Origin: an uncultured Gammaproteobacteria bacterium
GTDB taxonomy: Bacteria; Patescibacteriota; Patescibacteriia; Magasanikbacterales; GWA2-37-8
DNA: 63,313 nucleotides
Direction: 5' to 3'
Assembly: GCA_964536615.1 (NCBI GenBank)
Contig: CAZHYG010000005.1
Location: 1-63,313 of the forward strand
Shown: positions 4,173 to 58,912 of the stretch, in pieces
How the letters are laid out: each line of letters starts with the position of its first letter
How positions within the stretch are numbered: position 1 is the first letter of the stretch
The notes under the pieces: generated by a model
Database searches by the model: none
What the model was told of the DNA's origin: nothing
The model's input: the letters and a program-made list of their open reading frames with translations, nothing else
Made by a program: the position numbers and the translations under genes

Positions 4173-5321
4173 TCAAGATTGCGATTCTAGAATTCGTAAA
4201 AAATTTTGAGCGGTATTGCGCCAGTTAAATTGGCTGGCTTGCGCTCTGCTCTTTTCGGAAAGATGTTGGTGAAGGCGTGGGTCAGAGATGATGCGGTTGA
4301 TGGCTTGAGCTATGTCTCCCGGTCTGTTAGGGTCGGTTAAAATTGCGGCATTACCGGTAATTTCCGGCAAGGACGAACGGTTTGAAGTTATAACGGGCGT
4401 GCCACAGCTCATCGCCTCAATTACTGGCAAGCCAAAACCTTCATAGAAGCTGGGGTAAACAAATAAGCGAGATAGCCCATATAAGGCCGGTTTTTCCTGA
4501 GCCTCTACGGAGCCAATAAAATGGATTTTTTCTTTAAAAGGAGAAGATTGATAAGCGTGGTAGATTTGTTGGTTGTTCCAGCCTGGATATCCGGCGATAA
4601 CCAGATGGTATTGAGGGGAGGCGGGAGAGAACAGTTCAAACGCTTTAATGAGTCCTGTAATATTTTTTCTTGGCTCAATAGTGCTTATGCATAAGATAAA
4701 ATTTTTTGGAAGCGCATATTTTTTTGCAATTGATGCAGTATCTGCTGGTTGAATCAGATTTGGGGCGGTGACGCCGGGATATAAAACCTCTATTTTTTCA
4801 GGTGCGATACCGTATTTGGAAATAAGATCTTTTTTTGTATAAAGCGAGGGGGTGAGTATGCGATAGGCTGTTTGGCACTGGGTGCGCGGTGCAATGGCTC
4901 TATGCCATAGGCGCTGCTTGAGTGAAAAGAATTCGGGATACAGCTCAAAAGAAAGATCATGAACGGTTAGAATATGCTTGGTGTTTTTTGAGAGGGCTGT
5001 AAAATTTAAATTGGGAGAAAAGAAAAAATCTAAGGACGCGCCGTTTAATTTTTTGGTGAGCAGCGCATCTATGCGAGGCCGGTGCAATATTTTTGTCGCC
5101 AGGTTGAATACTTTATTTGGCCATGGGTGTGAGATGGTGTAAATAGATGGTTGGCGCCAAACGGGAAGATTCTTGCTGATATCACGATACGAATTATAAA
5201 AGAGGAAATATTCGTGCTGCTTGTCTGTGGTAAACAGAGCGTCAAGAAGTTGAAAGGTAAATTCGCCTACACCGGATCGGATTGGCGACATAAGCGGTCG
5301 TATATCAATGCCGATTCGCAT
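4173..5321 (-). CDS. glycosyltransferase family 4/1
   Basis: 382-aa ORF. YPSFYEGFGLPVIEAMSCGTPVITSNRSSLPEITG is the canonical GT4 donor-binding motif. Confidence 0.85.
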   Translation of the reverse strand: MRIGIDIRPLMSPIRSGVGEFTFQLLDALFTTDKQHEYFLFYNSYRDISKNLPVWRQPSIYTISHPWPNKVFNLATKILHRPRIDALLTKKLNGASLDFFFSPNLNFTALSKNTKHILTVHDLSFELYPEFFSLKQRLWHRAIAPRTQCQTAYRILTPSLYTKKDLISKYGIAPEKIEVLYPGVTAPNLIQPADTASIAKKYALPKNFILCISTIEPRKNITGLIKAFELFSPASPQYHLVIAGYPGWNNQQIYHAYQSSPFKEKIHFIGSVEAQEKPALYGLSRLFVYPSFYEGFGLPVIEAMSCGTPVITSNRSSLPEITGNAAILTDPNRPGDIAQAINRIISDPRLHQHLSEKSRAQASQFNWRNTAQNFLRILESQS

Positions 5322-7880: not shown

Positions 7881-7985
7881 ATATTGAAACCAATAGTGTA
7901 TATATTTATCATATTTTATCCTAGTTTTTTGGTTTAAGCAAGAAAAAAATGTCTGTGGCCATGCTGGTTTTTTTGCCTTTGTTTA

Positions 7986-8014
7986 TTGACAAAATGGCCA
8001 AGATATGGTATTCT
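7986..8014 (+). promoter_or_regulatory. sigma70-type promoter TTGACA-17-TATTCT for RNase P RNA
   Basis: TTGACA at 7986-7991, a 17-nt spacer, then TATTCT at 8009-8014. It lies just upstream of the RNase P RNA 5' end. The TTATTGACAAAAT context recurs at 29400. Confidence 0.5.
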
Positions 8015-8018
8015 ATGG

Positions 8019-8416
8019 CCGTAGCGATGATCGCCTTGGCGCAAGCCAGGGAGGAAAGTCCGAACATTCCCTCTGTATAGTCACGCCGGAGGAGAAAAGT
8101 AGCGGGTAACTCCCGTCGCCTCGGGTAATACCGAGATGAGGTGCGAGCAGAGACGTTTCTTTTCGAAAGGAAAGAAAGAGCAAACCTTAAATTCGTGTTA
8201 AATCATGAGTTATTGCTTAGCTCTTAGCGGAGGTAACAAGCTAAGAGGTGAAACGGCTAAATCCTTACTCGAATGCAAGAGCAGCCCTAAATTGGAGTAA
8301 TCCATTTTTTGGAAAAGTTCGCTCGCTTAAGAATGGCGGTAACGCCATCTCTAGATAAATGATCATCTCTCTTAAAAATTTATTTTTAAGAGTTACAAAA
8401 TTCGGCTTAAGCTATA
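8019..8416 (+). ncRNA. rnpB: RNase P RNA (bacterial type A-like)
   Basis: Universal motifs AGGGAGGAAAGTCCGAAC near the 5' end and ACAAAATTCGGCTTAAG near the 3' end (compare GAGGAAAGUCCGGGC and ACAGAACCCGGCUUA). P1 can form as GTAGC/GCTAT and P2 as GATGATC/GATCATC. The segment is a GC-enriched patch in an AT-rich spacer. The ends are approximate. Confidence 0.85.
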
Positions 8417-8420
8417 AAAA

Positions 8421-26905: not shown

Positions 26906-29059
26906 TTATATATCCAAATTACTGACGCTTTTGGCGTGGGTTTGGATAAAGCTTTTGCGAGGGCCAACTTCGTCACCCATAAGCACCTCAAAGACTTCAT
27001 TGGCTAGCTCGGCGTCTTCAATAGTAACCCGCTTCATCATACGGTTTTGCGGGTTCATAGTGGTTTCCCAGAGTTGTTCAGGGTTCATTTCTCCCAAACC
27101 TTTATAGCGTTGAATGTTGACCTTAACGCCATTTATTTCCAAACCTTGAATGCTATCATCTCCATTTTCTGCTTCTGCTCCAGCTTCGGTTTTTTCTTCG
27201 GATTTGGATTTCTTTGCTGTATTTTTTGCTGCTGTGCCAGGTTGTGATTTGGAGATTTCAGCAAGAATTTTTTCTTTTTCTTCATCATTATATGCGTATT
27301 TCATGTTTTTGCCGTACTTCAAACTGTATAGTGGAGGTTGGGCAATTAAGACGTGCCCGCCCGTAATTAGGGCAGGGTAGTAGCGATAGAAGAAAGTAAG
27401 AAGCAGGGTGCGGATATGCGCGCCGTCTACATCGGCATCGGTCATGATAACCAGACGGTGATAACGTAATTTTGAGATATCAAATTGTTCGCCAATGTTT
27501 GTGCCCATGGCAATGATAAGAGATTTTAATTCATTGTTTGCCAAAATTTTATCTAAGCGAGCGCGTTCCACGTTGAGCACTTTACCGCGAAGAGGCAGGA
27601 TGGCCTGGTGTTCACGGTCGCGTCCTTGTTTGGCACTGCCGCCAGCCGAGTCACCCTCTACAATGAATAGCTCAGACTCTTCAGCGTGCCGGCTGCTGCA
27701 GTCGGCCAATTTACCAGGCAAAGTAAATCCTTCCAAAGCGCCTTTGCGTAAAATGGTGTCGCGTGCCATTTTGGCAGCGTTGCGGGCGCGAGCGGACAGC
27801 AAGCATTTTTCCACAATACCTTCCGCATCTTTTGGATGTTCTTCTAAAAATACTAAAAACGCTTCGCTCATTACAGTTTCTACCGCAGCTTTTACTTCGG
27901 TGTTGCCGAGCTTGGCTTTGGTTTGACCTTCAAATTGAGGCTCGGTTACTTTTATAGAGATAATACAAACTAAACCTTCACGCACATCTTCACCAGTAAG
28001 ATTAGAATCTTTTTCTTTTAAGAATCCTTTGTTACGAGCATAGCTGTTTAGACTGCGGGTAAGAGCAGTGCGAAAACCGGCCACATGCGTGCCGCCTTCA
28101 GGATTGTAGATATTGTTGGTGAAAGCAAATAATGATTCACTAAATTCATCGCTGTATTGCAGAGCAACTTCAACTTTAACATTGTCTTGTTCTTTTTCTA
28201 TATAAAAAACATTTTCATTTTTTACTTCTTTATTTTGATTGAGGTGTCGAACGTATGAAGCGACGCCGCCTTCAAAGTAAAAACTGTATGTTGGGTTTGG
28301 AAACGCGATAGCGGTCTTATCCTGGGCTTTTTCTTCGCCTTCACGTTTATCGGTAATGGAAATACGAATACCTTTGGAAAGGTAGGCTTGTTGGCGGATG
28401 TGGTCTATAATTGTTTTCCAATCATAATCGATAGTTTCAAAAATTGTGTCATCAGCACGAAAAGTAATGGTAGTGCCGGTGTCTTTACATGTGCCAACTT
28501 CTTTGGCTTTTTTTACCGGTTTGCCCCCATCTCTAAATTCTTGAACCCAGATTTTTCCATCGCGATGCACCTCCGCTTTGGTGTGAGTGGATAGCGCGTT
28601 TACAACCGAAACACCCACGCCGTGCAAACCGCCTGATACTTTATAACTTCCGGAATCAAATTTACCGCCGGCGTGCAGTTTGGTCATTACCACTTCAAGA
28701 GCGCTAACGCCCATTTGCGGATGAATGTCAACGGGAATACCGCGGCCATTATCTTTTACTTCTATATAATGATCGGGGAGCAGAGCAATATCTATTTGGT
28801 TACAAAAACCAGCCATGGATTCATCTATGGAGTTGTCTACCACTTCCCAAATAAGGTGGTGTAAGCCAACTGGTCCGGTTGAACCGATGTACATGCCCGG
28901 ACGGCGGCGAACAGCTTCTAAACCTTCCAGAACAGTAATACTTTGTGCGCTATAAGCTCCGGTTGGTTTATCAGATACTTTTGCTTTGGTTTTTACAGGC
29001 GCTGGTTTTTCTTCTGGTGCTGTTTCAATCCTCCCTTTTTCAACTTTTTTGGTGGGCAT
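26906..29059 (-). CDS. gyrB: DNA gyrase subunit B
   Basis: 717 aa. Motifs: LEGLEAVRRRPGMYIG, GGLHGVG, the Toprim EGDSAGG and PLRGKVLNVE. About 35 aa of K/E/P-rich N-terminal extension. Confidence 0.95.
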   Translation of the reverse strand: MPTKKVEKGRIETAPEEKPAPVKTKAKVSDKPTGAYSAQSITVLEGLEAVRRRPGMYIGSTGPVGLHHLIWEVVDNSIDESMAGFCNQIDIALLPDHYIEVKDNGRGIPVDIHPQMGVSALEVVMTKLHAGGKFDSGSYKVSGGLHGVGVSVVNALSTHTKAEVHRDGKIWVQEFRDGGKPVKKAKEVGTCKDTGTTITFRADDTIFETIDYDWKTIIDHIRQQAYLSKGIRISITDKREGEEKAQDKTAIAFPNPTYSFYFEGGVASYVRHLNQNKEVKNENVFYIEKEQDNVKVEVALQYSDEFSESLFAFTNNIYNPEGGTHVAGFRTALTRSLNSYARNKGFLKEKDSNLTGEDVREGLVCIISIKVTEPQFEGQTKAKLGNTEVKAAVETVMSEAFLVFLEEHPKDAEGIVEKCLLSARARNAAKMARDTILRKGALEGFTLPGKLADCSSRHAEESELFIVEGDSAGGSAKQGRDREHQAILPLRGKVLNVERARLDKILANNELKSLIIAMGTNIGEQFDISKLRYHRLVIMTDADVDGAHIRTLLLTFFYRYYPALITGGHVLIAQPPLYSLKYGKNMKYAYNDEEKEKILAEISKSQPGTAAKNTAKKSKSEEKTEAGAEAENGDDSIQGLEINGVKVNIQRYKGLGEMNPEQLWETTMNPQNRMMKRVTIEDAELANEVFEVLMGDEVGPRKSFIQTHAKSVSNLDI

Positions 29060-29192
29060 ACGATGTTAGGTTATAAAACAAATCTGTTTAATTTTATAAA
29101 AATTTCATGTATAGTATTTTATCATAGTACCATGCGCAGGGCAAGAGAAAATACTCTGCGCTGGCGCACCTGTCAACTCTAGGGAGGGAGAA

Positions 29193-29306
29193 ATGGAGTT
29201 CGCGCTTGAATTGTGCGCGGTGGTTGGTGCAGGGCCGTTGTGCCTGTACCTGGTGATTGTTCTTTATGTTCGGCTTTGGCCGAGGAAGGAGTCCGAAAAC
29301 GTCTAG
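29193..29306 (+). CDS. candidate 37-aa hydrophobic peptide (MEFALELCAVVGAGPLCLYLVIVLYVRLWPRKESENV)
   Basis: It is below the ORF-track cutoff and was found by hand. The SD AGGGAGGGAG ends 2 nt before the ATG. It has a single TM-like core, lies in a GC-rich patch, and is followed by a hairpin terminator. An ncRNA alternative is not excluded. Confidence 0.4.
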   Translation: MEFALELCAVVGAGPLCLYLVIVLYVRLWPRKESENV

Positions 29307-29324
29307 GCGTACGCCTGGCGGGGC

Positions 29325-29365
29325 GGCCGGTGCACGCATAAGAGGGGCGCCGGCCTTTGTTGTTT
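29325..29365 (+). terminator. rho-independent terminator
   Basis: Stem GGCCGGTGC / GCGCCGGCC (one G-U pair), a 13-nt loop, then TTTGTTGTTT. Confidence 0.55.
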
Positions 29366-29402
29366 ATAGAGCCAAAAAAATGTTTACAGAGATGCAAAGT
29401 TA

Positions 29403-29431
29403 TTGACAAAATCACGTAAGTATAGTAACCT
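29403..29431 (+). promoter_or_regulatory. putative promoter TTGACA-17-TAACCT
   Basis: It sits in the same TTATTGACAAAAT context as the rnpB promoter. The -10 element is weak. Confidence 0.4.
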
Positions 29432-29642
29432 GTGTATACGATTTGCTCTTTTTATTAAGTAGTCAGATGAAGACAAGATGGTCGGTATATTATGGTTAGG
29501 ATGTCGTTGCTTTTATACTAAGACCATGTAGAGAATTTATCTCTACATGGATTGAGGGAAAAGGGTAATATCATCCTAAACATAGCCGGCACACATGCTG
29601 TGTGTTTGGTTAATGGCTGATTGTTCTTCATAGGGGGCTTTG

Positions 29643-29858
29643 ATGAGGAATCGTTTCTGGTTGTCGGCAGGGTGCATGCCTAGTGGGTCCAACACCGATT
29701 GTGCCACAAAGGACACCCGTCTCTCAATCCCATACCACCCGAAGCCGTCGGTGTCACCGCCGGCGACCGAGGCCGATTCGGAAGCGCCACCGCCGGCGAC
29801 CGAGGCCGATTCGGAAGCGCCGTCCAAGCACGGCATCCCGAAGGCTGTCATCCGATGA
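29643..29858 (+). CDS. candidate 71-aa acidic Pro-rich protein with 11-aa tandem repeat (coding strand uncertain)
   Basis: The SD AGGGGG lies 5 nt upstream of the ATG. GC is high at third codon positions, but the antisense 91-aa ORF (29576-29851) shares the same third positions. Composition therefore cannot choose the strand. The + strand is favoured by the promoter, the SD, the ATGA coupling to the next ORF and the + oriented terminators. Confidence 0.35.
   Translation: MRNRFWLSAGCMPSGSNTDCATKDTRLSIPYHPKPSVSPPATEADSEAPPPATEADSEAPSKHGIPKAVIR
29755..29820. repeat. perfect tandem duplication, 2 x 33 bp (CACCGCCGGCGACCGAGGCCGATTCGGAAGCGC)
   Basis: Copies at 29755-29787 and 29788-29820 are identical base for base. 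Confidence 0.95.
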
Positions 29859-29980
29859 TCGTGGTGATGTGTTCGTGGAGGTGTTGGCGAATACCGAGGG
29901 CACCTCTTCGGTGTATTGGGGCGGAGAACGTCCCCAAGATCCCAATCCTCGTCTTCGCCTACTGCTACTTCTACGGCTGA
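29855..29980 (+). CDS. candidate 41-aa Cys/aromatic-rich peptide (MIVVMCSWRCWRIPRAPLRCIGAENVPKIPILVFAYCYFYG)
   Basis: Its ATG overlaps the TGA of the previous candidate ORF (ATGA). The last 16 codons all end in C or G. This frame-specific bias is not shared with any long antisense ORF. Confidence 0.35.
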   Translation: MIVVMCSWRCWRIPRAPLRCIGAENVPKIPILVFAYCYFYG

Positions 29981-30002
29981 GCGACTTGTCGCCAGCCGCC
30001 AC

Positions 30003-30047
30003 GGCTGTCTATCTGTCCCGCATGCGGGCAGGAGGGGATAGACAGCC
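30003..30047 (+). other. long GC-rich compound stem-loop
   Basis: The outer stem GGCTGTCTATC / GATAGACAGCC is perfect over 11 bp. It encloses the palindrome CCCGCATGCGGG. No T-run follows directly. Confidence 0.7.
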
Positions 30048-30091
30048 GAATTCGTTGCCGTGTCTTTAAAATTTTTGAAGCCAGTGCAAAA

Positions 30092-30128
30092 AACACAACT
30101 CTACAAAATAGAGTTGTGTTTTATTTTT
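30092..30128 (+). terminator. rho-independent terminator
   Basis: Stem AACACAACTCT / AGAGTTGTGTT, loop ACAAAAT, then TTATTTTT. Confidence 0.65.
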
Positions 30129-30231
30129 AGTGTGCATAAAAGGCTTTGGCAACTATTGCATAAAAATTGTTTTTGATGTGTAGTCTTGTTATACTTTATG
30201 ACAAAACGTTTTTATTCATTAATACACATTT

Positions 30232-33200
30232 ATGCGTCATGCATATATGCGCTTTGCGGCAATAGTTGCAGTTGTTGTCGCGGCGTTTGGTGTAAGTACT
30301 GCTGCCCGTGCAGCCGATACTACACCGCCAGTAACAAATGTTACTGTGCCTGTTGCCGGTTCGGCAGTGGCGGGAACTGCGCTTACTCTTACAGCTACCG
30401 CGTCTGATGCGGTAGGAGTAATTGGTGTTCAGTTTATTTTAGACGAAACAGTTAGTTTAGGAGCTGAAGATGTTGTTGCTCCATATACAATGACATGGGA
30501 TTCCACGTCTGTGTCAAATGGCTTGCATACAATTTCTGCCAAAACTCGTGATGCAGCTCGAAATTATGCGGTAAGTATTATTAATATTACTGTAGACAAT
30601 GATGTACCTGCAGCCGGAACTATTCTTATTAATGGCGGTGCGGCATTTACCAAAAGCACAGCCGTAACCTTAACCTTGTCTGCTACTGACGCAGTTACCT
30701 CAATTACGCAAATGCGTTTTTCAAATAATGGAACCAGCTTTAATGCTGCCGTTGCGTATAATACAACTGCATCTTGGACGCTCACAACTGGTGCGGGCAC
30801 TAAAACTGTATACGCACAGTTTAAAGATGCAGCTGGGAATTGGTCGCCTGTTTCAACTGCCACAATTATTCTTGATACAACCGCGCCAACTATTTCAGCA
30901 GTAGCTACAAGTAGTATTACCGGCACCAGTGTTACTATTACCTGGACCACAAATGAACCGGCAACTTCTCAAGCAAATTATGGTTTAACTACTAGTTACG
31001 GTACAACCACAACACTTGACACAACGCTCGTAACTTCTCACTCTATTACTTTAACCGGTCTTAATCCAAATACTACATATAATTTTCGAGTTCGTTCTAA
31101 AGATGGAGCTGGAAATGAGCGAGTAGGTACTAATTTTACTTTTAAAACCGCTTCAGCGACCGATACCACTGCTCCGTCAGTGCCAACCAACTTAACTGCT
31201 GCAGCCATGTCAAGTGCTCAAATAGATTTGTCATGGACTGCTTCTACGGATAATGTCGGTGTTGTAGGGTACGAAGTATTTCAGGATGGCGTGCAGGTTG
31301 GCACAACCGCAAATACATTCTTTAGTAATTTTGGCTTGAGTCCTGCAACTGCCTATACTTTTGCTGTGCGTGCTTATGATGCTGCTGGCAATCGTTCTGG
31401 TTTTTCTGCTTCAGCCATAACAAGTACAACACAGGTGCCAACTTCAACAGGGGCTGCTTCTTTAGGCGCACACACTTTAGCGTGGTTAGCTTGTGGTAGT
31501 AACGGTCCGATAACGACCTCTCCAATTACCACACAAAGTTCAAATAGCACTTTGCTTGCTTGGGTTGCACGAGGAAATATTAATGACTTTACTGCAAGTA
31601 CAATTCCTACTGACAATAAAGGTAATGTGCTTAGTATGATTGGAACGGTTCACGATTATACCCCATACTGGGCTAATTCAGGAGAAGCAATGTATCAAAT
31701 AGCTTCTGCCAATGGCGGAGCAAATCACATCTTTACAGCTCCACTACCAACAGCAGATGAAGTTACTATGGCTGTGGTAGAAGTGAAAAATGGCGGTGTT
31801 ATTGCGGATGCGCAGTGGGTTAAGACAGTCGGCAGCGCCCCAAATACCAGCGCCAATGTAACAGTAAATGGTCCGGCAACTCTAGTTGCTTTATGGGCCG
31901 GAGATGGTGCTGATGTAAATATGACAGCTGTGCCAGATAGTGGCTTTACTGTTATTGATTCACAACTTGTTAATACTACTTGTGCTATCCAAACCGTGGT
32001 GGCTGTAAAAGAAGTAACTGCGGCAGGTACATATAACGTAACTTGGACTGCTTCTCCAGTGCAAGGTGCTCATCTATGGCTCATAGCGGTGCAATCTGCA
32101 GCTCCAGACACCACAACTCCTTCAGTTCCCGCAAGTTTAACAGCCGTTCCAGTTTCCGATACCCAAATTAATCTTTCTTGGACTGCTTCCACAGATAATG
32201 TTGGAGTAACTGGCTACCAAGTTTTCCGCAACGGCAGCACTACTCCAGTTGCAACCCCATCAACAAATTCTTACAGTGATACTGGTCTTACTGCCTCTAC
32301 ACTGTATACGTATACAGTTAAAGCAGTAGATGCAGCCGGAAATGTTTCTGGTACATCTTCGCCTGTGTCAACTACAACTTTATCTGTACCGCCACCAGAC
32401 ACCACTCCGCCAGTAGTTGTTATTACAGCACCATTACAGGGCGCTGTATTATCATCAGGAACAACTGCCACAACACTTAGTGTGAGTACAAATGAAAGCT
32501 CTACGTGTGCATACGCAACTACTGCCGGTACTCCGTTTGGTTCTATGACAGTATTTGGTACCACCGGAGCTGTGGCTCACAGCACTACACTTTCTGGTTT
32601 AACAAATGGTAGTGCATATACCTATTATGTAAAATGCAGTGATGTGTCTGCAAATGTTTCCAGCGATACATCCACCTCATTTTCAGTGGCAAATCCTGGC
32701 AGCGGAGTATTGGCACAAACAAATATTCAAAGCCAGCTCTTAACTGAATCAACTAATGCTCCAATCTCAGTAACAGGCGCAACCTTTACACCTCCAAGCA
32801 ACTCGTTGTTGGTTGTAAGTACGCTTATGATGAGCAATCAAGCTAATGGTACCGAAACTGTATCGGGCGGAGGCTTGACCTGGACAAAGCGCATGTCTTT
32901 TGTGTCTCCAATACATCCATCTGGTTATGAATATACTCAAGAAATTTGGACTGCCCCAGTAAGTACAGCTTCTTCAATGGCGGTGACTGTAGACTCTACC
33001 GGTACTTCGGGAACAGATCCGACCCGTGTAAATTTACAAATTATTGCTTTCACTGGTTATGATACAGTAGCGCCAATCGGCGCCACTGCCAGTGGTTCCA
33101 GCTTAGGTTCTGGCACTGCAACCATTACCTTGTCTGCCGCACCTGCCACTAACAGTGTGGTGGTTGCTACCAAAGGCACTGCTGATGTTAATAACACCAA

Positions 33201-33396
33201 CAGTTTAGCTACTCCTGGTACAGGCTGGACAGAAGTATTTGACCAAGCAACTTCTTACGGATATGGTGATATGGAAACAGAAGTTCGTACCGGCAGTAAT
33301 TCTACAGCCGTAACTTGGAACGATATGGCAGATCCTGCAGGCGCATCTTTATGGGAAGCAAGCGCGCTTGCATTGGAAATAAAAGCCGCAAATTAA
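30232..33396 (+). CDS. large secreted surface protein with Ig-like and fibronectin type III repeats
   Basis: 1054 aa. The signal peptide is MRFAAIVAVVVAAFGVSTAARA/AD, with a likely start at 30247. Several T/S/A-rich beta-sandwich repeats are present. These include FN3-like units such as PSVPTNLTAAAMSSAQIDLSWTASTDNVGVVGYEVF and PSVPASLTAVPVSDTQINLSWTASTDNVGVTGYQVF. Confidence 0.8.
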   Translation: MRHAYMRFAAIVAVVVAAFGVSTAARAADTTPPVTNVTVPVAGSAVAGTALTLTATASDAVGVIGVQFILDETVSLGAEDVVAPYTMTWDSTSVSNGLHTISAKTRDAARNYAVSIINITVDNDVPAAGTILINGGAAFTKSTAVTLTLSATDAVTSITQMRFSNNGTSFNAAVAYNTTASWTLTTGAGTKTVYAQFKDAAGNWSPVSTATIILDTTAPTISAVATSSITGTSVTITWTTNEPATSQANYGLTTSYGTTTTLDTTLVTSHSITLTGLNPNTTYNFRVRSKDGAGNERVGTNFTFKTASATDTTAPSVPTNLTAAAMSSAQIDLSWTASTDNVGVVGYEVFQDGVQVGTTANTFFSNFGLSPATAYTFAVRAYDAAGNRSGFSASAITSTTQVPTSTGAASLGAHTLAWLACGSNGPITTSPITTQSSNSTLLAWVARGNINDFTASTIPTDNKGNVLSMIGTVHDYTPYWANSGEAMYQIASANGGANHIFTAPLPTADEVTMAVVEVKNGGVIADAQWVKTVGSAPNTSANVTVNGPATLVALWAGDGADVNMTAVPDSGFTVIDSQLVNTTCAIQTVVAVKEVTAAGTYNVTWTASPVQGAHLWLIAVQSAAPDTTTPSVPASLTAVPVSDTQINLSWTASTDNVGVTGYQVFRNGSTTPVATPSTNSYSDTGLTASTLYTYTVKAVDAAGNVSGTSSPVSTTTLSVPPPDTTPPVVVITAPLQGAVLSSGTTATTLSVSTNESSTCAYATTAGTPFGSMTVFGTTGAVAHSTTLSGLTNGSAYTYYVKCSDVSANVSSDTSTSFSVANPGSGVLAQTNIQSQLLTESTNAPISVTGATFTPPSNSLLVVSTLMMSNQANGTETVSGGGLTWTKRMSFVSPIHPSGYEYTQEIWTAPVSTASSMAVTVDSTGTSGTDPTRVNLQIIAFTGYDTVAPIGATASGSSLGSGTATITLSAAPATNSVVVATKGTADVNNTNSLATPGTGWTEVFDQATSYGYGDMETEVRTGSNSTAVTWNDMADPAGASLWEASALALEIKAAN

Positions 33397-55649: not shown

Positions 55650-55803
55650 TGTGTTTAAGAAGAGCTGTTTTTAAATGTCTCAGTTTTCTATTTGATTTAC
55701 TTTCATATAAAAAAGTAGGTTAACCTGAAGGCTGGAACAATATCCGGTCTTCTCTTGGCCCTTTTGGTCGAGATCGTCCCCCACTTTGGGGAGAAGGCAA
55801 GTC

Positions 55804-56517
55804 ATGCGGGATCGTACGGCTTCATTCAAAGCTCTGGCGAAGATTGTTGCTAATCTCTCCGATGAGGAGCAGCTTGCCATTATAGATCATCCGAAGCGAT
55901 TCGGGGATCTGATGTGCCAATTCGCTGCTGAAGTTGCTTCAAGTACCTACGTGATTCCTGTTCACGATAAGGACGTGCCGCTGCCACACAGGGCAGCTGC
56001 CAGAACTTGGCGTCAGTATGCTCGTGCACACGACTACAATGGCCCTATCGCTTGGAGGGTCAAGGAAGGCTTCACCCTCAGGAGTCATGCCCAGACGGCT
56101 GGTCCGTGCTCAGGTCTGAGGTATATCTCGTATTGGGACGAGATCACAGGCGATGCACCTACGGACAAATGTATCGTGTTCTGGGTGCCACGTTTGGTTA
56201 GTAGTTCTATGGACAAGACCTTTGTCCAGATGGAGGAACGCCGTGAAGAGGCAAAAAGATGTCTCGAGCTGCCAGACAACCATGCTACCAGTTTTGGGGG
56301 TATTTCACTCCTCTTTGCGCTCGTTTTGGCCCATTTTAAGCGAGTAGGTGAGCGCGTACCGCTCAAGGAGTTTTTTGCAGTAAGCGACTCCTTGGGTGTG
56401 GAAGGGAACCGCTTGATTGTGGGTGGTTTCAATAAGAGCGGGTTGCAGTGCGCCAATACGGTCGGTAAGCCTCGCTATGACGTAGGGTTCTTCCTCTTGG
56501 GAGTGGAGTTGCTCTAG
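55804..56517 (+). CDS. GC-rich orphan protein (237 aa), unknown function
   Basis: The start was moved to ATG at 55804, which follows a GGAGAAGG SD. The uninterrupted 238-codon frame lies in DNA of about 55% GC, against about 40% for the neighbours. I recognise no family motif. Confidence 0.6.
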   Translation: MRDRTASFKALAKIVANLSDEEQLAIIDHPKRFGDLMCQFAAEVASSTYVIPVHDKDVPLPHRAAARTWRQYARAHDYNGPIAWRVKEGFTLRSHAQTAGPCSGLRYISYWDEITGDAPTDKCIVFWVPRLVSSSMDKTFVQMEERREEAKRCLELPDNHATSFGGISLLFALVLAHFKRVGERVPLKEFFAVSDSLGVEGNRLIVGGFNKSGLQCANTVGKPRYDVGFFLLGVELL

Positions 56518-56610: not shown

Positions 56611-56697
56611 TATAATTCAAAAAGACTCTTATTAACTAAGGGTCTTTTTGTATATTTATAGCGCAACACTTATCTAAAATAAAAAATAAACAGAGGG

Positions 56698-56724
56698 TTG
56701 ACATGCCCTCTGTTTTGGTATACT
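56698..56724 (+). promoter_or_regulatory. extended -10 promoter (TTGACA ... TGgTATACT)
   Basis: TTGACA at 56698-56703 and TGGTATACT at 56716-56724. The spacer is short (15 nt) but the TGn extension is present. The same TTTGGTATACT occurs upstream of the rlmI-like gene. Confidence 0.5.
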
Positions 56725-56763
56725 GTTTTGTATTCCGCACACACGCGGAAAAAGGAGGATATC

Positions 56764-57225
56764 ATGTCGACCAATTCGTTTGGCGATGTCTGCCAAGCGG
56801 TGATGCGCTTGTTTCCGCCTACTCTGGAGATCGACCCTTCTGTCTGTGATTTGGGGTTGGTTCCAGACTTGGACAAGCTGCATGCCTACCAGTTTGCGCG
56901 TCCAAGGCTTGACGGCACTGTCCCTGAGGTTGTCGAAAACGACTTCTGGTACATGGCCTTGCAGGGCGGCTATGACCGGTATGGGCTGGGGTTGTTGAAT
57001 CGGCTATGGAATGTGCCGTATATGGAATGGCCGGCATCGTTGATGTCAGTGGGTGACACGCTCGTGTTTGGTGGTGCCAAGTTGCGGCGCAAGGGCATGT
57101 TGTTTGTGGCCACTCTTGCGATTCAGTATGATTTGCGTACCGAGAGGTTGGTGCCTGTGGTTGGTGCCAAGTGGACAGGGTCTCCGTACTGGCCGTATCA
57201 GGCTGGGCTAGTGTGTGAAGCGTAG
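56764..57225 (+). CDS. GC-rich orphan protein (153 aa), unknown function
   Basis: The start was moved to ATG at 56764, which lies 6 nt after a perfect AGGAGG. The composition is GC-rich and no family motif was recognised. Confidence 0.6.
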   Translation: MSTNSFGDVCQAVMRLFPPTLEIDPSVCDLGLVPDLDKLHAYQFARPRLDGTVPEVVENDFWYMALQGGYDRYGLGLLNRLWNVPYMEWPASLMSVGDTLVFGGAKLRRKGMLFVATLAIQYDLRTERLVPVVGAKWTGSPYWPYQAGLVCEA

Positions 57226-58705: not shown

Positions 58706-58912
58706 TCATCGGCGTGTGGGCCGGTGCGAGCGTGCCCCGCTGCAGATTGGCGCAGCCGCGTTGATTGGCAGCTGAAGCGCCGGCAGAATCCGGTCTTCGT
58801 TCCGGAAGTTCAGTTGGTAGGCGTTTTTTGGCCCTGGTAGCCAGAGCACGGCAATGGCCGCTATAGTAGCGGACACAATGAGCGCAAGCGCCCACTGCAA
58901 TGGCGTTTTCAT
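58706..58912 (-). CDS. GC-rich small membrane-anchored protein (68 aa)
   Basis: The SD AAGGAG lies 8 nt upstream of the ATG. It has an N-terminal TM (LQWALALIVSATIAAIAVLWL), a GC-rich composition and an ATTGACAAAA -35 context upstream. No homology recognised. Confidence 0.5.
   Translation of the reverse strand: MKTPLQWALALIVSATIAAIAVLWLPGPKNAYQLNFRNEDRILPALQLPINAAAPICSGARSHRPTRR

What the first reader, a model, noticed from the sequence alone, without database searches (positions are those of the whole stretch)
29403..30128. GC-rich cassette upstream of the giant surface protein: two translationally coupled mini-ORFs or a ~500-nt structured RNA
A host-type promoter (TTATTGACAAAAT context, identical to the rnpB promoter context) is followed by an AT-rich leader of about 200 nt. 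A strongly GC-rich block follows at 29580-30060. On the + strand it can encode a 71-aa acidic Pro-rich protein (SD AGGGGG). A 41-aa Cys/aromatic peptide, MIVVMCSWRCWRIPRAPLRCIGAENVPKIPILVFAYCYFYG, follows, and its ATG overlaps the first stop (ATGA). The last 16 codons of the peptide all end in G or C, which is a frame-specific signal. The block ends in an 11-bp perfect outer stem enclosing CCCGCATGCGGG, followed by a canonical terminator. It also contains many local hairpins, for example CCGGCACACA-TGC-TGTGTGTTTGG and AATACCGAG...CTTCGGTGTATT. In AT-rich genomes, GC-rich non-rRNA patches are often structured RNAs. A novel large ncRNA is therefore a live alternative. Either way it is unannotatable by anything I recognise.
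Basis: partly seen in the sequence, partly recalled or inferred. Interest (0 to 1): 0.65.

Follow-up and report, generated by a model that had tools for sequence, protein, structure and literature searches.

The report
Hypervariable small membrane-protein gene, structured leader
The GC-rich patch is a small protein-coding gene, not a large RNA: it belongs to a tiny family found only in some Magasanikbacteria, its untranslated ends (including a previously undescribed folded leader) are better conserved than its coding part, and the copy in this window is an interrupted allele.

Summary
The window comes from a Candidatus Magasanikbacteria (Patescibacteria) contig. In 13 related loci the same cassette sits divergently upstream of gyrB. 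Each has a TTGAC[AT]-17-TAnnnT promoter and a 170-270-nt AT-rich 5'UTR with a conserved stem-loop element. That element shows 96.6% pairing, seven pairs with compensatory changes, and no Rfam match. An SD follows, then an ORF with GC3 of 0.77-0.95 in a genome whose genes have GC3 of 0.28-0.41, then a structured 3'UTR with a conserved AU-rich element and a terminator. The ORFs encode 37-133-aa proteins with a disordered N-domain, often carrying an NTDC..DTR..PYxPxPS motif, and one transmembrane helix at the very C-terminus. An exhaustive HMMER search finds only a handful of members, with no Pfam or PADLOC match. Window ORF1 is homologous to these proteins, and the differences are largely synonymous, so the block is coding. 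A ~500-nt structured RNA is rejected. The coding part is hypervariable. A co-circulating strain has flanks 237/238 and 163/164 identical but a different, intact 95-aa allele. At least one more allele exists. The window allele stops early, lacks a full anchor, and carries the anchor's last residues in the -1 frame (ORF2). It is probably a decayed or split allele. Function is unknown.

The parts
29403..29431 (+). Sigma-70-type promoter: -35 TTGACA (29403-29408), 17-nt spacer, -10 TAACCT (29426-29431). The transcription start is inferred to lie near 29438.
   Evidence: All 12 homologous cassettes have TTGAC[AT]-17-TAnnnT at the same position. The same -35 context precedes rnpB.
29438..29642 (+). 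AT-rich 5'UTR of about 205 nt (GC 0.37).
   Evidence: It is 237/238 identical between the window and the allele-B strain L099. Metatranscriptome contigs cover 29431-29637.
29494..29581 (+). Conserved leader stem-loop element. P1 pairs 29494-29503 with 29572-29581. P2 pairs 29507-29514 with 29561-29568. The apical P3 pairs 29524-29533 with 29541-29550. Invariant bases are UGGU...GU.RUU.C..UUA...AGGGUAA.A.
   Evidence: On 12 sequences 96.6% of cells are paired, against 44-48% when partners are slid, and 7 pairs change on both sides. RNAalifold recovers the same helices on whole 5'UTRs. The covariance model scores 92 bits on + and 49 on -. Nucleotide identity between species equals that of gyrB. 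There is no Rfam hit.
29584..29618 (+). Hairpin P4 (AGCC..CACACA-TGC-TGTGTG..GGCT) between the leader element and the SD.
   Evidence: A hairpin of unrelated sequence occupies the same place in every relative. I read these by eye; they are not formally scored.
29633..29637 (+). Shine-Dalgarno GGGGG, 5 nt before the ATG. It also marks the 5' border of the allele-variable block.
   Evidence: GGGGG, GGGAG or GGAGG lies 3-14 nt before the start codon in all relatives. Alleles diverge right after 29637.
29643..29858 (+). ORF1, 71 aa. It is the N-terminal disordered domain of the family protein, with the motif NTDCATKDTRLSIPYHPKPS, and it ends at a premature TGA where relatives begin their membrane helix (..PKAVIR* against ..PKAVVTAA.. 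or ..NKAFVMVLM..).
   Evidence: tblastn gives E 2e-15 to L004 and 1e-13 to P0005. I count eight synonymous third-position differences in codons 17-37 against L004 (sequences). GC3 is 0.73. The best 19-residue hydrophobicity is -0.05, so there is no TM segment.
29755..29821 (+). Exact 33-nt x 2 tandem duplication, in frame with ORF1 (PPATEADSEAP twice).
   Evidence: Tandem Repeats Finder reports 100% match. Assemblies break here.
29855..29980 (+). ORF2, 41 aa, in the -1 frame with an ATGA overlap. Its last 13 residues (IPILVFAYCYFYG) are homologous to the end of the membrane anchor of allele B (ASILVFFVFYFYG). Its start (MIVVMCSW) resembles the start of the anchor in L004-type proteins.
   Evidence: Alleles A and B are aligned, with translations. 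Period-3 GC switches frame three times between 29844 and 29982. The best 19-residue hydrophobicity is 1.07, below a TM threshold.
29638..29964 (+). Allele-variable block of 327 nt. It is replaced by an unalignable 278-nt block (allele B) in strains with otherwise identical flanks. At least one further allele (C) exists, plus a 94%-identical variant (A').
   Evidence: Contigs in X10, X13 and X16 skip 327 nt and carry 278 nt between the same borders. Loose ends of alleles B and C appear in X5, X7, X9, X11, X12, X14, X17 and X18. The full allele B sequence comes from L097 and L099.
29983..30047 (+). GC-rich part of the 3'UTR: a small hairpin GCGAC-TT-GTCGC (29983-29994) and the 11-bp-stem hairpin (30003-30047).
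   Evidence: Read from the sequence. Relatives have other GC-rich hairpins here, plus a CUUCCUUC motif that the window lineage lacks.
30056..30089 (+). Conserved AU-rich 3'UTR element (consensus CATTGTTTTTAAtTTTTTTGArrNCAGyG.AAAAA).
   Evidence: Alignment of 11 3'UTRs.
30090..30128 (+). Intrinsic terminator: a 14-bp stem, flanked by an A-run upstream and a T-run downstream.
   Evidence: Found by the terminator scan. The stem covaries among relatives. RNA contigs end at 30111 and 30113 with no RNA cover over 30140-30240, while DNA contigs run through.

Best explanation
The region is one monocistronic small-protein gene cassette on the + strand.

A host-type promoter drives an mRNA of about 690 nt. 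Its 205-nt 5'UTR carries a conserved, covarying stem-loop element, which is a cis-regulatory RNA motif not in Rfam. Its coding part belongs to an orphan family of tail-anchored membrane proteins with a disordered cytoplasmic N-domain and one C-terminal helix. This family is restricted to a sub-clade of Magasanikbacteria. Its 3'UTR holds GC-rich hairpins, a conserved AU-rich element and a terminator.

The GC-richness is a coding property, seen as GC-ending codons. The coding block is hypervariable both within and between species, while the UTRs are conserved.

The window carries a derived allele in which the ORF is interrupted. ORF1 is the N-domain, cut off just where the anchor should start. 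ORF2, in the -1 frame, keeps only the last 13 residues of the anchor. This allele is most likely decayed, or at best makes a soluble fragment plus a coupled peptide.

Shown here: homology, coding signature, leader structure, allele replacement, and presence in RNA libraries.

Inferred: the UTRs control translation or stability of the mRNA, possibly through a GAAGGAAG/CUUCCUUC 5'-3' pairing in relatives. The locus is under diversifying or balancing selection. Recombination-associated GC-biased repair, or selection on mRNA folding, keeps GC3 high.
For: Organism and synteny:
- The cassette lies upstream of gyrB in L003-L008, L010, L015, L022, L093, L094, L096 and L128.

Coding evidence:
- ORF1 matches L004, P0005 and P0006 with E 2e-15 to 2e-12.
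- Differences from L004 in the conserved motif are mostly synonymous.
- GC3 is 0.73-0.95 in the ORFs, against 0.28-0.41 in window genes.
- All 12 relatives and alleles have a TM segment 0-8 residues from the C-terminus.
- AlphaFold2 gives a confident helix only at residues 70-93.

Leader evidence.

The promoter is conserved. The 3'UTR and terminator are conserved.

Hypervariability:
- Window against L099: 5'UTR 237/238 identical, 3' end 163/164, downstream 103/103, and the ORF unalignable.
- Alleles A, A', B and C occur in public runs, several within one sample.
- dN/dS is 0.4-1.2.
- ORF identity between species is 23-49%, while gyrB is 73-80% and the leader 73-88%.

Interruption:
- Allele B is an intact 95-aa ORF.
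- The window ORFs lack a TM segment.
- The reading frame switches along the block.

RNA evidence:
- Metatranscriptome contigs cover the leader, allele B's ends and the 3'UTR, and end at the terminator.
- One RNA contig covers allele A-specific 29866-30046.

The family is an orphan.
Against: - No peptide or ribosome data exist.
- The RNA evidence comes from assembled contigs, which carry no strand information and have low depth. For allele A it is a single 181-nt contig.
- The leader's function is untested, and no expression platform or consistent SD sequestration was found.
- The covariation rests on 12 sequences from a few lineages.
- The interrupted allele A is identical in samples from 2018 and 2025. 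This fits a stable functional variant as well as a neutral pseudogene.
- The 5'-3' pairing motif is conserved in sequence, so it shows no covariation. The window lineage lacks it.
Confidence: 0.8

Rival explanations
1. This allele is a functional two-gene unit. ORF1 (71 aa, soluble) and ORF2 (41 aa, Cys/aromatic, short hydrophobic tail) are translated by termination-reinitiation at ATGA.
For: The ATGA overlap has a weak SD-like GAAGG 10 nt upstream. The ORF2 frame shows strong G/C-ending codons in its last 20 codons. Allele A is identical in samples years apart and appears in one RNA contig.
Against: No relative or other allele has the split. ORF2's conserved part is only the tail of the ancestral anchor. 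The middle of ORF2 has its G/C-ending signal in a different frame. Neither ORF has a full TM segment. ORF2 has no homologues of its own.
Confidence: 0.15
2. The GC-rich block is a large structured non-coding RNA of about 500 nt.
For: The folding energy is far below that of shuffles, and there are many local hairpins. GC-rich patches in AT-rich genomes are often RNAs.
Against: The antisense strand folds equally well. There is no Rfam match even at E 10, apart from a sub-threshold tRNA-like hit on the minus strand inside the tandem repeat. The block is unalignable between alleles and species, so no structure can be conserved. GC excess is at codon position 3, and homology is at the protein level with synonymous changes.
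Confidence: 0.03
3. Functionally the cassette is a type-I-toxin-like or abortive-infection-like module. A membrane-inserting small protein is kept silent by its folded mRNA (leader element, 5'-3' pairing). It evolves fast and decays often because it is costly or is in an arms race with phages.
For: The product is a small single-helix membrane protein with long, conserved, structured UTRs. GAAGGAAG in the 5'UTR and CUUCCUUC in the 3'UTR occur in 10 of 10 relatives, pair in the full-length minimum-energy fold in 4 of 7, and are lost together in the window lineage. dN/dS is near 1, several alleles coexist, and one allele is interrupted.
Against: The helix is at the C-terminus, after 15-110 hydrophilic residues, unlike known type I toxins. 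No antisense RNA promoter is conserved. There is no PADLOC or Pfam hit. The locus is in a core-gene neighbourhood (gyrB, ftsW, ribosomal genes). It is absent from viral contigs.
Confidence: 0.2
4. The real gene is the 91-aa minus-strand ORF at 29576-29851 that the assembly's gene caller annotated.
For: It was called in two ENA assemblies and is the longest minus-strand ORF.
Against: It has no family match. The corresponding antisense ORF is truncated to 49 aa in allele B and varies without pattern in relatives. It lacks an SD and promoter context, whereas the + strand has a conserved promoter, SD, start codon (MR..) and terminator.
Confidence: 0.02

Closest known systems
Type I toxin mRNAs (hok/Sok, AapA1/IsoA1, TisB/IstR, TxpA/RatA); comparison from general knowledge
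   Same: A small membrane-helix protein. A long, highly structured mRNA with conserved UTRs. A predicted pairing between the 5' and 3' ends. A strong terminator. Frequent decay of copies.
   Different: No sequence similarity. The helix is C-terminal behind a disordered domain of up to about 110 aa. No antisense RNA was found. There is a single copy at a fixed core-genome position.
Bacterial tail-anchored membrane proteins such as E. coli ElaB/YqjD/YgaM (DUF883); comparison from general knowledge
   Same: A hydrophilic cytoplasmic N-domain, one TM helix within a few residues of the C-terminus, and no signal peptide.
   Different: No Pfam match. The N-domain is disordered, Pro/Ala-rich and hypervariable. 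The family is confined to a few Magasanikbacteria.
Curated cis-regulatory leader and riboswitch-candidate RNA motifs (Rfam 15)
   Same: A conserved stem-loop with covariation, at a fixed position in the 5'UTR of one gene family.
   Different: It matches none of the 4227 Rfam models. No ligand, protein partner or expression platform is evident. It comes in two forms, with and without the apical P3 hairpin.
Multi-allelic loci under diversifying selection with conserved flanks (for example pheromone, pilin or immunity genes); comparison from general knowledge
   Same: Sharp borders between near-identical flanks and unalignable coding alleles. Several alleles occur in one community.
   Different: The variable part is predicted to face the cytoplasm. 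No silent donor copies or template repeat lie nearby. No partner gene was identified.

Membership tests
Any Rfam 15 RNA family (including large ncRNAs such as OLE, GOLLD, HEARO, ROOL, raiA) | The covariance-model score reaches the family's gathering threshold. | tested here: not met
   The whole window at gathering threshold gives only two tRNAs. Region 28900-30400 at E<=10 gives only sub-threshold chance-level hits. Five related loci give nothing at E<=0.01.
Large structured non-coding RNA (generic) | Sequence and structure of the block are conserved among relatives, with covariation and no conserved reading frame. | tested here: not met
   The block is unalignable between alleles and 23-49% identical between species. 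A conserved reading frame with protein-level homology is present.
cis-regulatory 5'UTR RNA motif (generic) | Conserved secondary structure with compensatory changes, on the sense strand, at a fixed position upstream of homologous genes. | tested here: met
   96.6% paired; 7 pairs with double changes; slid controls give 44-48%. An independent RNAalifold run recovers the helices. There is one copy per locus, and the sense strand scores far higher.
cis-regulatory 5'UTR RNA motif (generic) | A demonstrated effect on expression, or a known ligand or partner. | not testable with these tools
   Folding predictions show no consistent SD sequestration.
Tail-anchored small membrane protein class | A single hydrophobic helix within about 10 residues of the C-terminus, and no N-terminal signal peptide. 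| tested here: met
   This is met in all 12 relatives and alleles: Kyte-Doolittle 19-residue maximum 1.8-3.1, lying 0-8 residues from the end, and an AlphaFold2 helix at 70-93. It is NOT met by the window's own ORF1 (-0.05) or ORF2 (1.07).
Type I toxin-antitoxin system | A hydrophobic toxin peptide, usually under 60 aa. | tested here: inconclusive
   Products are 37-133 aa. Three are 37-56 aa (L022, L008, L010). The helix is C-terminal.
Type I toxin-antitoxin system | A cis-encoded antisense RNA overlapping the toxin mRNA. | tested here: inconclusive
   The minus-strand promoter-like sites in the window (30152-30123, 29727-29698) are not conserved in relatives. No strand-specific RNA data were available.
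Type I toxin-antitoxin system | Toxicity on overexpression, neutralised by the RNA. | not testable with these tools
   This needs an experiment.
Known protein families and defence systems (Pfam-A, PADLOC) | A profile HMM match. | tested here: not met
   Zero families at E<=1 for nine proteins in both libraries.
Diversity-generating retroelement target or silent-cassette gene conversion | A template repeat or donor copy similar to the variable block, plus a reverse transcriptase nearby. | tested here: not met
   No second copy of block A in the 63-kb window, and none of block B in 12-15 kb of the allele-B strain. The differences include indels and affect all bases. The rest of the genome could not be searched.

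The most novel reading that the evidence does not exclude
The locus is an 'allelic cassette' system. Highly conserved UTRs (the leader element, the 3' AU-rich element and the terminator) serve both as a post-transcriptional lock on a potentially harmful tail-anchored membrane effector and as the homology arms through which very divergent coding alleles are exchanged within the population. Frequent recombination, through GC-biased repair, would have driven GC3 to about 0.8 in a 42%-GC genome. The effector would act in phage defence or in host/competitor interaction in these episymbiotic bacteria.
Probability: 0.15. Interest if true: 0.75.

Novelty: new variant of a known kind. Interest (0 to 1): 0.5.

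Why it matters
Candidate Phyla Radiation bacteria are uncultured, and most of their lineage-specific genes are unannotated. In this case automatic gene calling even picked the wrong strand. This locus gives three testable things:
- a new conserved 5'UTR RNA element, as conserved as gyrB, with clear covariation;
- an orphan family of tail-anchored small proteins;
- a natural example in which UTRs are under much stronger constraint than the coding sequence, and very divergent alleles coexist in one community.

It also shows that a GC-rich patch in an AT-rich genome can be a codon-level signature of a fast-evolving gene rather than a structured RNA. If the regulation or the protein relates to phage defence or host interaction, it would be a rare functional handle on Magasanikbacteria. 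If not, it is an ordinary orphan small gene with an unusually well-defined leader.

Tried and rejected
- Rfam at gathering and permissive thresholds gave nothing for the region. A 29-bit mascRNA/tRNA-like hit on the minus strand at 29753-29800 lies inside the tandem repeat and is below threshold.
- A tmRNA/tRNA scan found only two tRNAs elsewhere.
- The metagenome pattern scan with the leader motif re-found only the L005 element (L085, L092). The other eight loci, and all 21 viral-contig hits, are a chance match inside an unrelated phage gene. The type-B leader pattern gave no viral hit.
- The leader covariance model found no second copy in the window or in 80 gyrB-anchored loci. The hit at 56690-56777 (E 0.61) is noise beside an unrelated GC-rich gene.
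- I tested whether the SD is consistently sequestered, using full-length folds of 12 mRNAs. There is no consistent partner.
- A window-specific 5'-3' pairing (GACAAG/CUUGUC) is only 6 bp and is broken in L003. I rejected it.
- A short uORF starting at the invariant NUGG of P1 has neither conserved length nor an SD. I rejected it.
- Programmed frameshifting at the ORF1/ORF2 junction: I saw no slippery heptamer in the sequence.
- An antisense RNA promoter: none is conserved.
- A template repeat or silent cassette: none was found.
- Literature searches for Magasanikbacteria small proteins, Patescibacteria type I toxins and CPR RNA motifs returned nothing relevant.
- Structure prediction gave only the TM helix, so I ran no fold search.
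Full report
**Observation**

- The block 29600-30070 reaches 0.59-0.67 GC, in a window of 0.418 GC.
- It is preceded by TTGACA-17-TAACCT (29403-29431) and an AT-rich stretch.
- It contains SD GGGGG (29633-29637), ORF1 (29643-29858, 71 aa) and ORF2 (29855-29980, 41 aa, ATGA overlap).
- It also holds an exact 33-nt x 2 tandem duplication (29755-29821) and an 11-bp-stem hairpin (30003-30047).
- It ends in a terminator (30090-30122 plus a T-run).
It shares the TTATTGACAAAAT promoter context.
- Nineteen of the last 20 ORF2 codons end in G or C, not strictly all of the last 16.
- The region folds far better than shuffles, but equally so on both strands. This does not discriminate between models.

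**Origin and relatives**

GyrB (26906-29059, minus strand) places the window in Candidatus Magasanikbacteria (Patescibacteria), on a wastewater metagenome contig. Loci anchored on gyrB, plus loci reached through protein hits, show the same cassette divergently upstream of gyrB. It occurs in L003-L008, L010, L015, L022, L093, L094, L096 and L128.

Every cassette has the following parts:
- TTGAC[AT]-17-TAnnnT;
- a 170-270-nt AT-rich 5'UTR;
- an SD (GGGGG, GGGAG or GGAGG);
- a GC-rich ORF;
- a 150-180-nt 3'UTR whose last ~70 nt (an AU-rich element plus a terminator with a covarying stem) are conserved.

More distant Magasanikbacteria (GyrB below about 80% identity) lack the cassette.

**The GC-rich block is coding**

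The ORFs encode 37-133-aa proteins. All 12 relatives and alleles have a hydrophobic segment with a 19-residue Kyte-Doolittle score of 1.8-3.1, lying 0-8 residues from the C-terminus. AlphaFold2 predicts only that helix with confidence, and the N-domain is disordered.

Most share M[RK]..N[TI][DE]C..DTR...PY[HY]P.PS near the N-terminus. Window ORF1 aligns to them with E 2e-15 to 2e-12. In codons 17-37 against L004 I count eight synonymous third-position changes and four replacements (sequences).

The GC excess is a codon-position effect. GC3 is 0.73-0.95 in the ORFs, against 0.28-0.41 in five other window genes. Positively charged residues precede the helix. From this I infer N-in, tail-anchored proteins.

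The family has no Pfam or PADLOC match. The word-index search found six members. An exhaustive HMMER pass over 1.84 billion representatives found three true ones, including a new one, P0009. The minus-strand 91-aa ORF that the assembly pipeline called is an artefact.

**The structured RNA is in the leader, not the GC block**

The most conserved part of the locus is an 88-nt element at 29494-29581. It forms three helices:
- P1, 10 bp;
- P2, 8 bp;
- P3, a 10-bp apical hairpin present in one of the two forms of the element.

On 12 sequences, 96.6% of cells are paired, against 44-48% when partners are slid. Seven pairs change on both sides, six of them in P1, and no shuffle reaches these values. 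RNAalifold on complete 5'UTRs recovers exactly these helices. A covariance model scores the sense strand at 92 bits and the antisense at 49, and finds one copy per locus.

Between species, the element's nucleotide identity (73-88%) equals or exceeds that of gyrB (73-80%). The ORF is 23-49% identical. The element matches no Rfam family, either in the window or in relatives.

Downstream, a hairpin of variable sequence (P4, 29584-29618) precedes the SD.

Ten of ten relatives carry GAAGGAAG in the 5'UTR and its exact complement CUUCCUUC in the 3'UTR. These pair in the full-length minimum-energy fold of 4 of 7 mRNAs. Both motifs are absent from the window lineage. This is suggestive, but there is no covariation to support it. 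I found no consistent SD sequestration, so the regulatory mechanism is inferred, not shown.

**Hypervariable coding block, and the state of the window allele**

Public runs that hold this organism show near-identical flanks but different coding blocks. Contigs in X10, X13 and X16 replace 29638-29964 (327 nt) with 278 other nucleotides. Loose ends of the same allele B, and of a third allele C, occur in eight further runs, often beside allele A. A 94%-identical variant A' also exists.

I recovered allele B in full from L097 and L099. Against L099, the window is 237/238 identical in the 5'UTR, 163/164 at the 3' end and 103/103 downstream. The ORFs share only short patches: N[TI][DE]C, PKAV, and ILVF..YFYG*.

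Allele B is one intact 95-aa ORF with the family motif and a terminal helix (GYILIFASILVFFVFYFYG). The closest genome in the species collection, L003, has a 100-N assembly gap exactly here. dN/dS among closer alleles is 0.4-1.2. No donor copy or template repeat lies nearby.

In the window, ORF1 stops (..PKAVIR*) exactly where relatives continue into the anchor. The G/C-ending signal then jumps frames three times. ORF2 keeps only the last 13 anchor residues, and neither ORF has a full TM segment.

The simplest reading is an allele broken by at least one frameshift, with further rearrangement of the anchor region. Coupled translation of ORF2 cannot be excluded. Allele A is identical in samples from 2018 and 2025.

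**Expression**

Two wastewater metatranscriptomes contain contigs covering 29431-29637 plus the start of allele B, and the end of allele B plus 29965-30111 and 29965-30113. These contigs stop in the terminator, and nothing covers 30140-30240, although DNA contigs run through. A third RNA library holds a contig specific to allele A, at 29866-30046. Contigs carry no strand information and depth is low, so this is supportive only.

**Comparison with known systems and verdict**

The cassette works most like a structured-mRNA small membrane-protein gene, with type I toxin mRNAs as the nearest analogy. It fails or cannot be tested on their defining features: peptide architecture, antisense RNA and toxicity. 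It belongs to no curated RNA or protein family.

The combination of four features is unusual but narrowly distributed:
- a new conserved leader;
- an orphan tail-anchored protein;
- extreme GC3 in an AT-rich genome;
- multiple unalignable alleles between identical UTRs.

I rate it a new variant of a known kind, with interest 0.5.

Noticed in passing
window 29193-29306 (+), terminator 29343-29358: A second GC-rich mini-gene lies between gyrB and the cassette. It encodes a 37-aa hydrophobic ORF (MEFALELCAVVGAGPLCLYLVIVLYVRLWPRKESENV) with SD GGGAGGGAG and its own terminator. The frame is kept in L003 and L099 despite many amino-acid changes. Analogous 30-39-aa ORFs sit there in L093 and L096, and 150-170-aa membrane proteins in L006, L007, L008 and L010. 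Its terminator stem is a polymorphism hot spot.
   Followed up: partly
window 8021-8419 (+), promoter 7983-8012: This is rnpB (bacterial RNase P class A). It scores 76.5 bits, below Rfam's gathering score of 100 (E 3e-23), so it is missed by a default scan. This is typical of divergent CPR RNase P RNA.
   Followed up: partly
window 55786-56517 (+), 56765-57225 (+), 58706-58912 (-): There are three further GC-rich (0.59-0.65) ORFs of unknown function in this 42%-GC window. At least one has a GC-rich terminator of the same GGCCG..CGGCC-TTTGTTGTTT type as the one at 29343. GC-rich accessory genes seem to be a general feature of this genome.
   Followed up: no
L006 about 2020-2045, L007 about 4830-4850, L010 about 4870-4895 (minus strand of loci), L093 45-70: A conserved CCCGGCCCCGGGGAAUGGGG element lies just upstream of the gene that precedes the cassette in relatives. 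It has no Rfam match and is absent from the window.
   Followed up: partly
window 29576-29851 (-): The public assemblies' gene caller annotated a 91-aa antisense ORF here and missed the real + strand gene. This is an example of mis-annotation caused by stop-poor GC-rich sequence.
   Followed up: yes
window 30232-33396 (+) against L094, L128, L006-L010: The gene after the cassette differs between lineages. It is a 1054-aa Big_7/fn3 surface protein in the window lineage, and a ~200-aa lipoprotein with a weak Peptidase_M10 match in relatives. L099 has an extra 251-aa gene after the surface protein. The gyrB-ftsW interval is a variable island in a core neighbourhood.
   Followed up: no
window 29914 and 29922: Run X7 carries an allele-A variant with T>C and C>T at these sites. 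In the ORF2 frame and in the third frame alike, one change is synonymous and the other a replacement. The first breaks the AAUACCGAG/UCGGUGUAUU hairpin. Neither coding nor structure is clearly protected there.
   Followed up: partly
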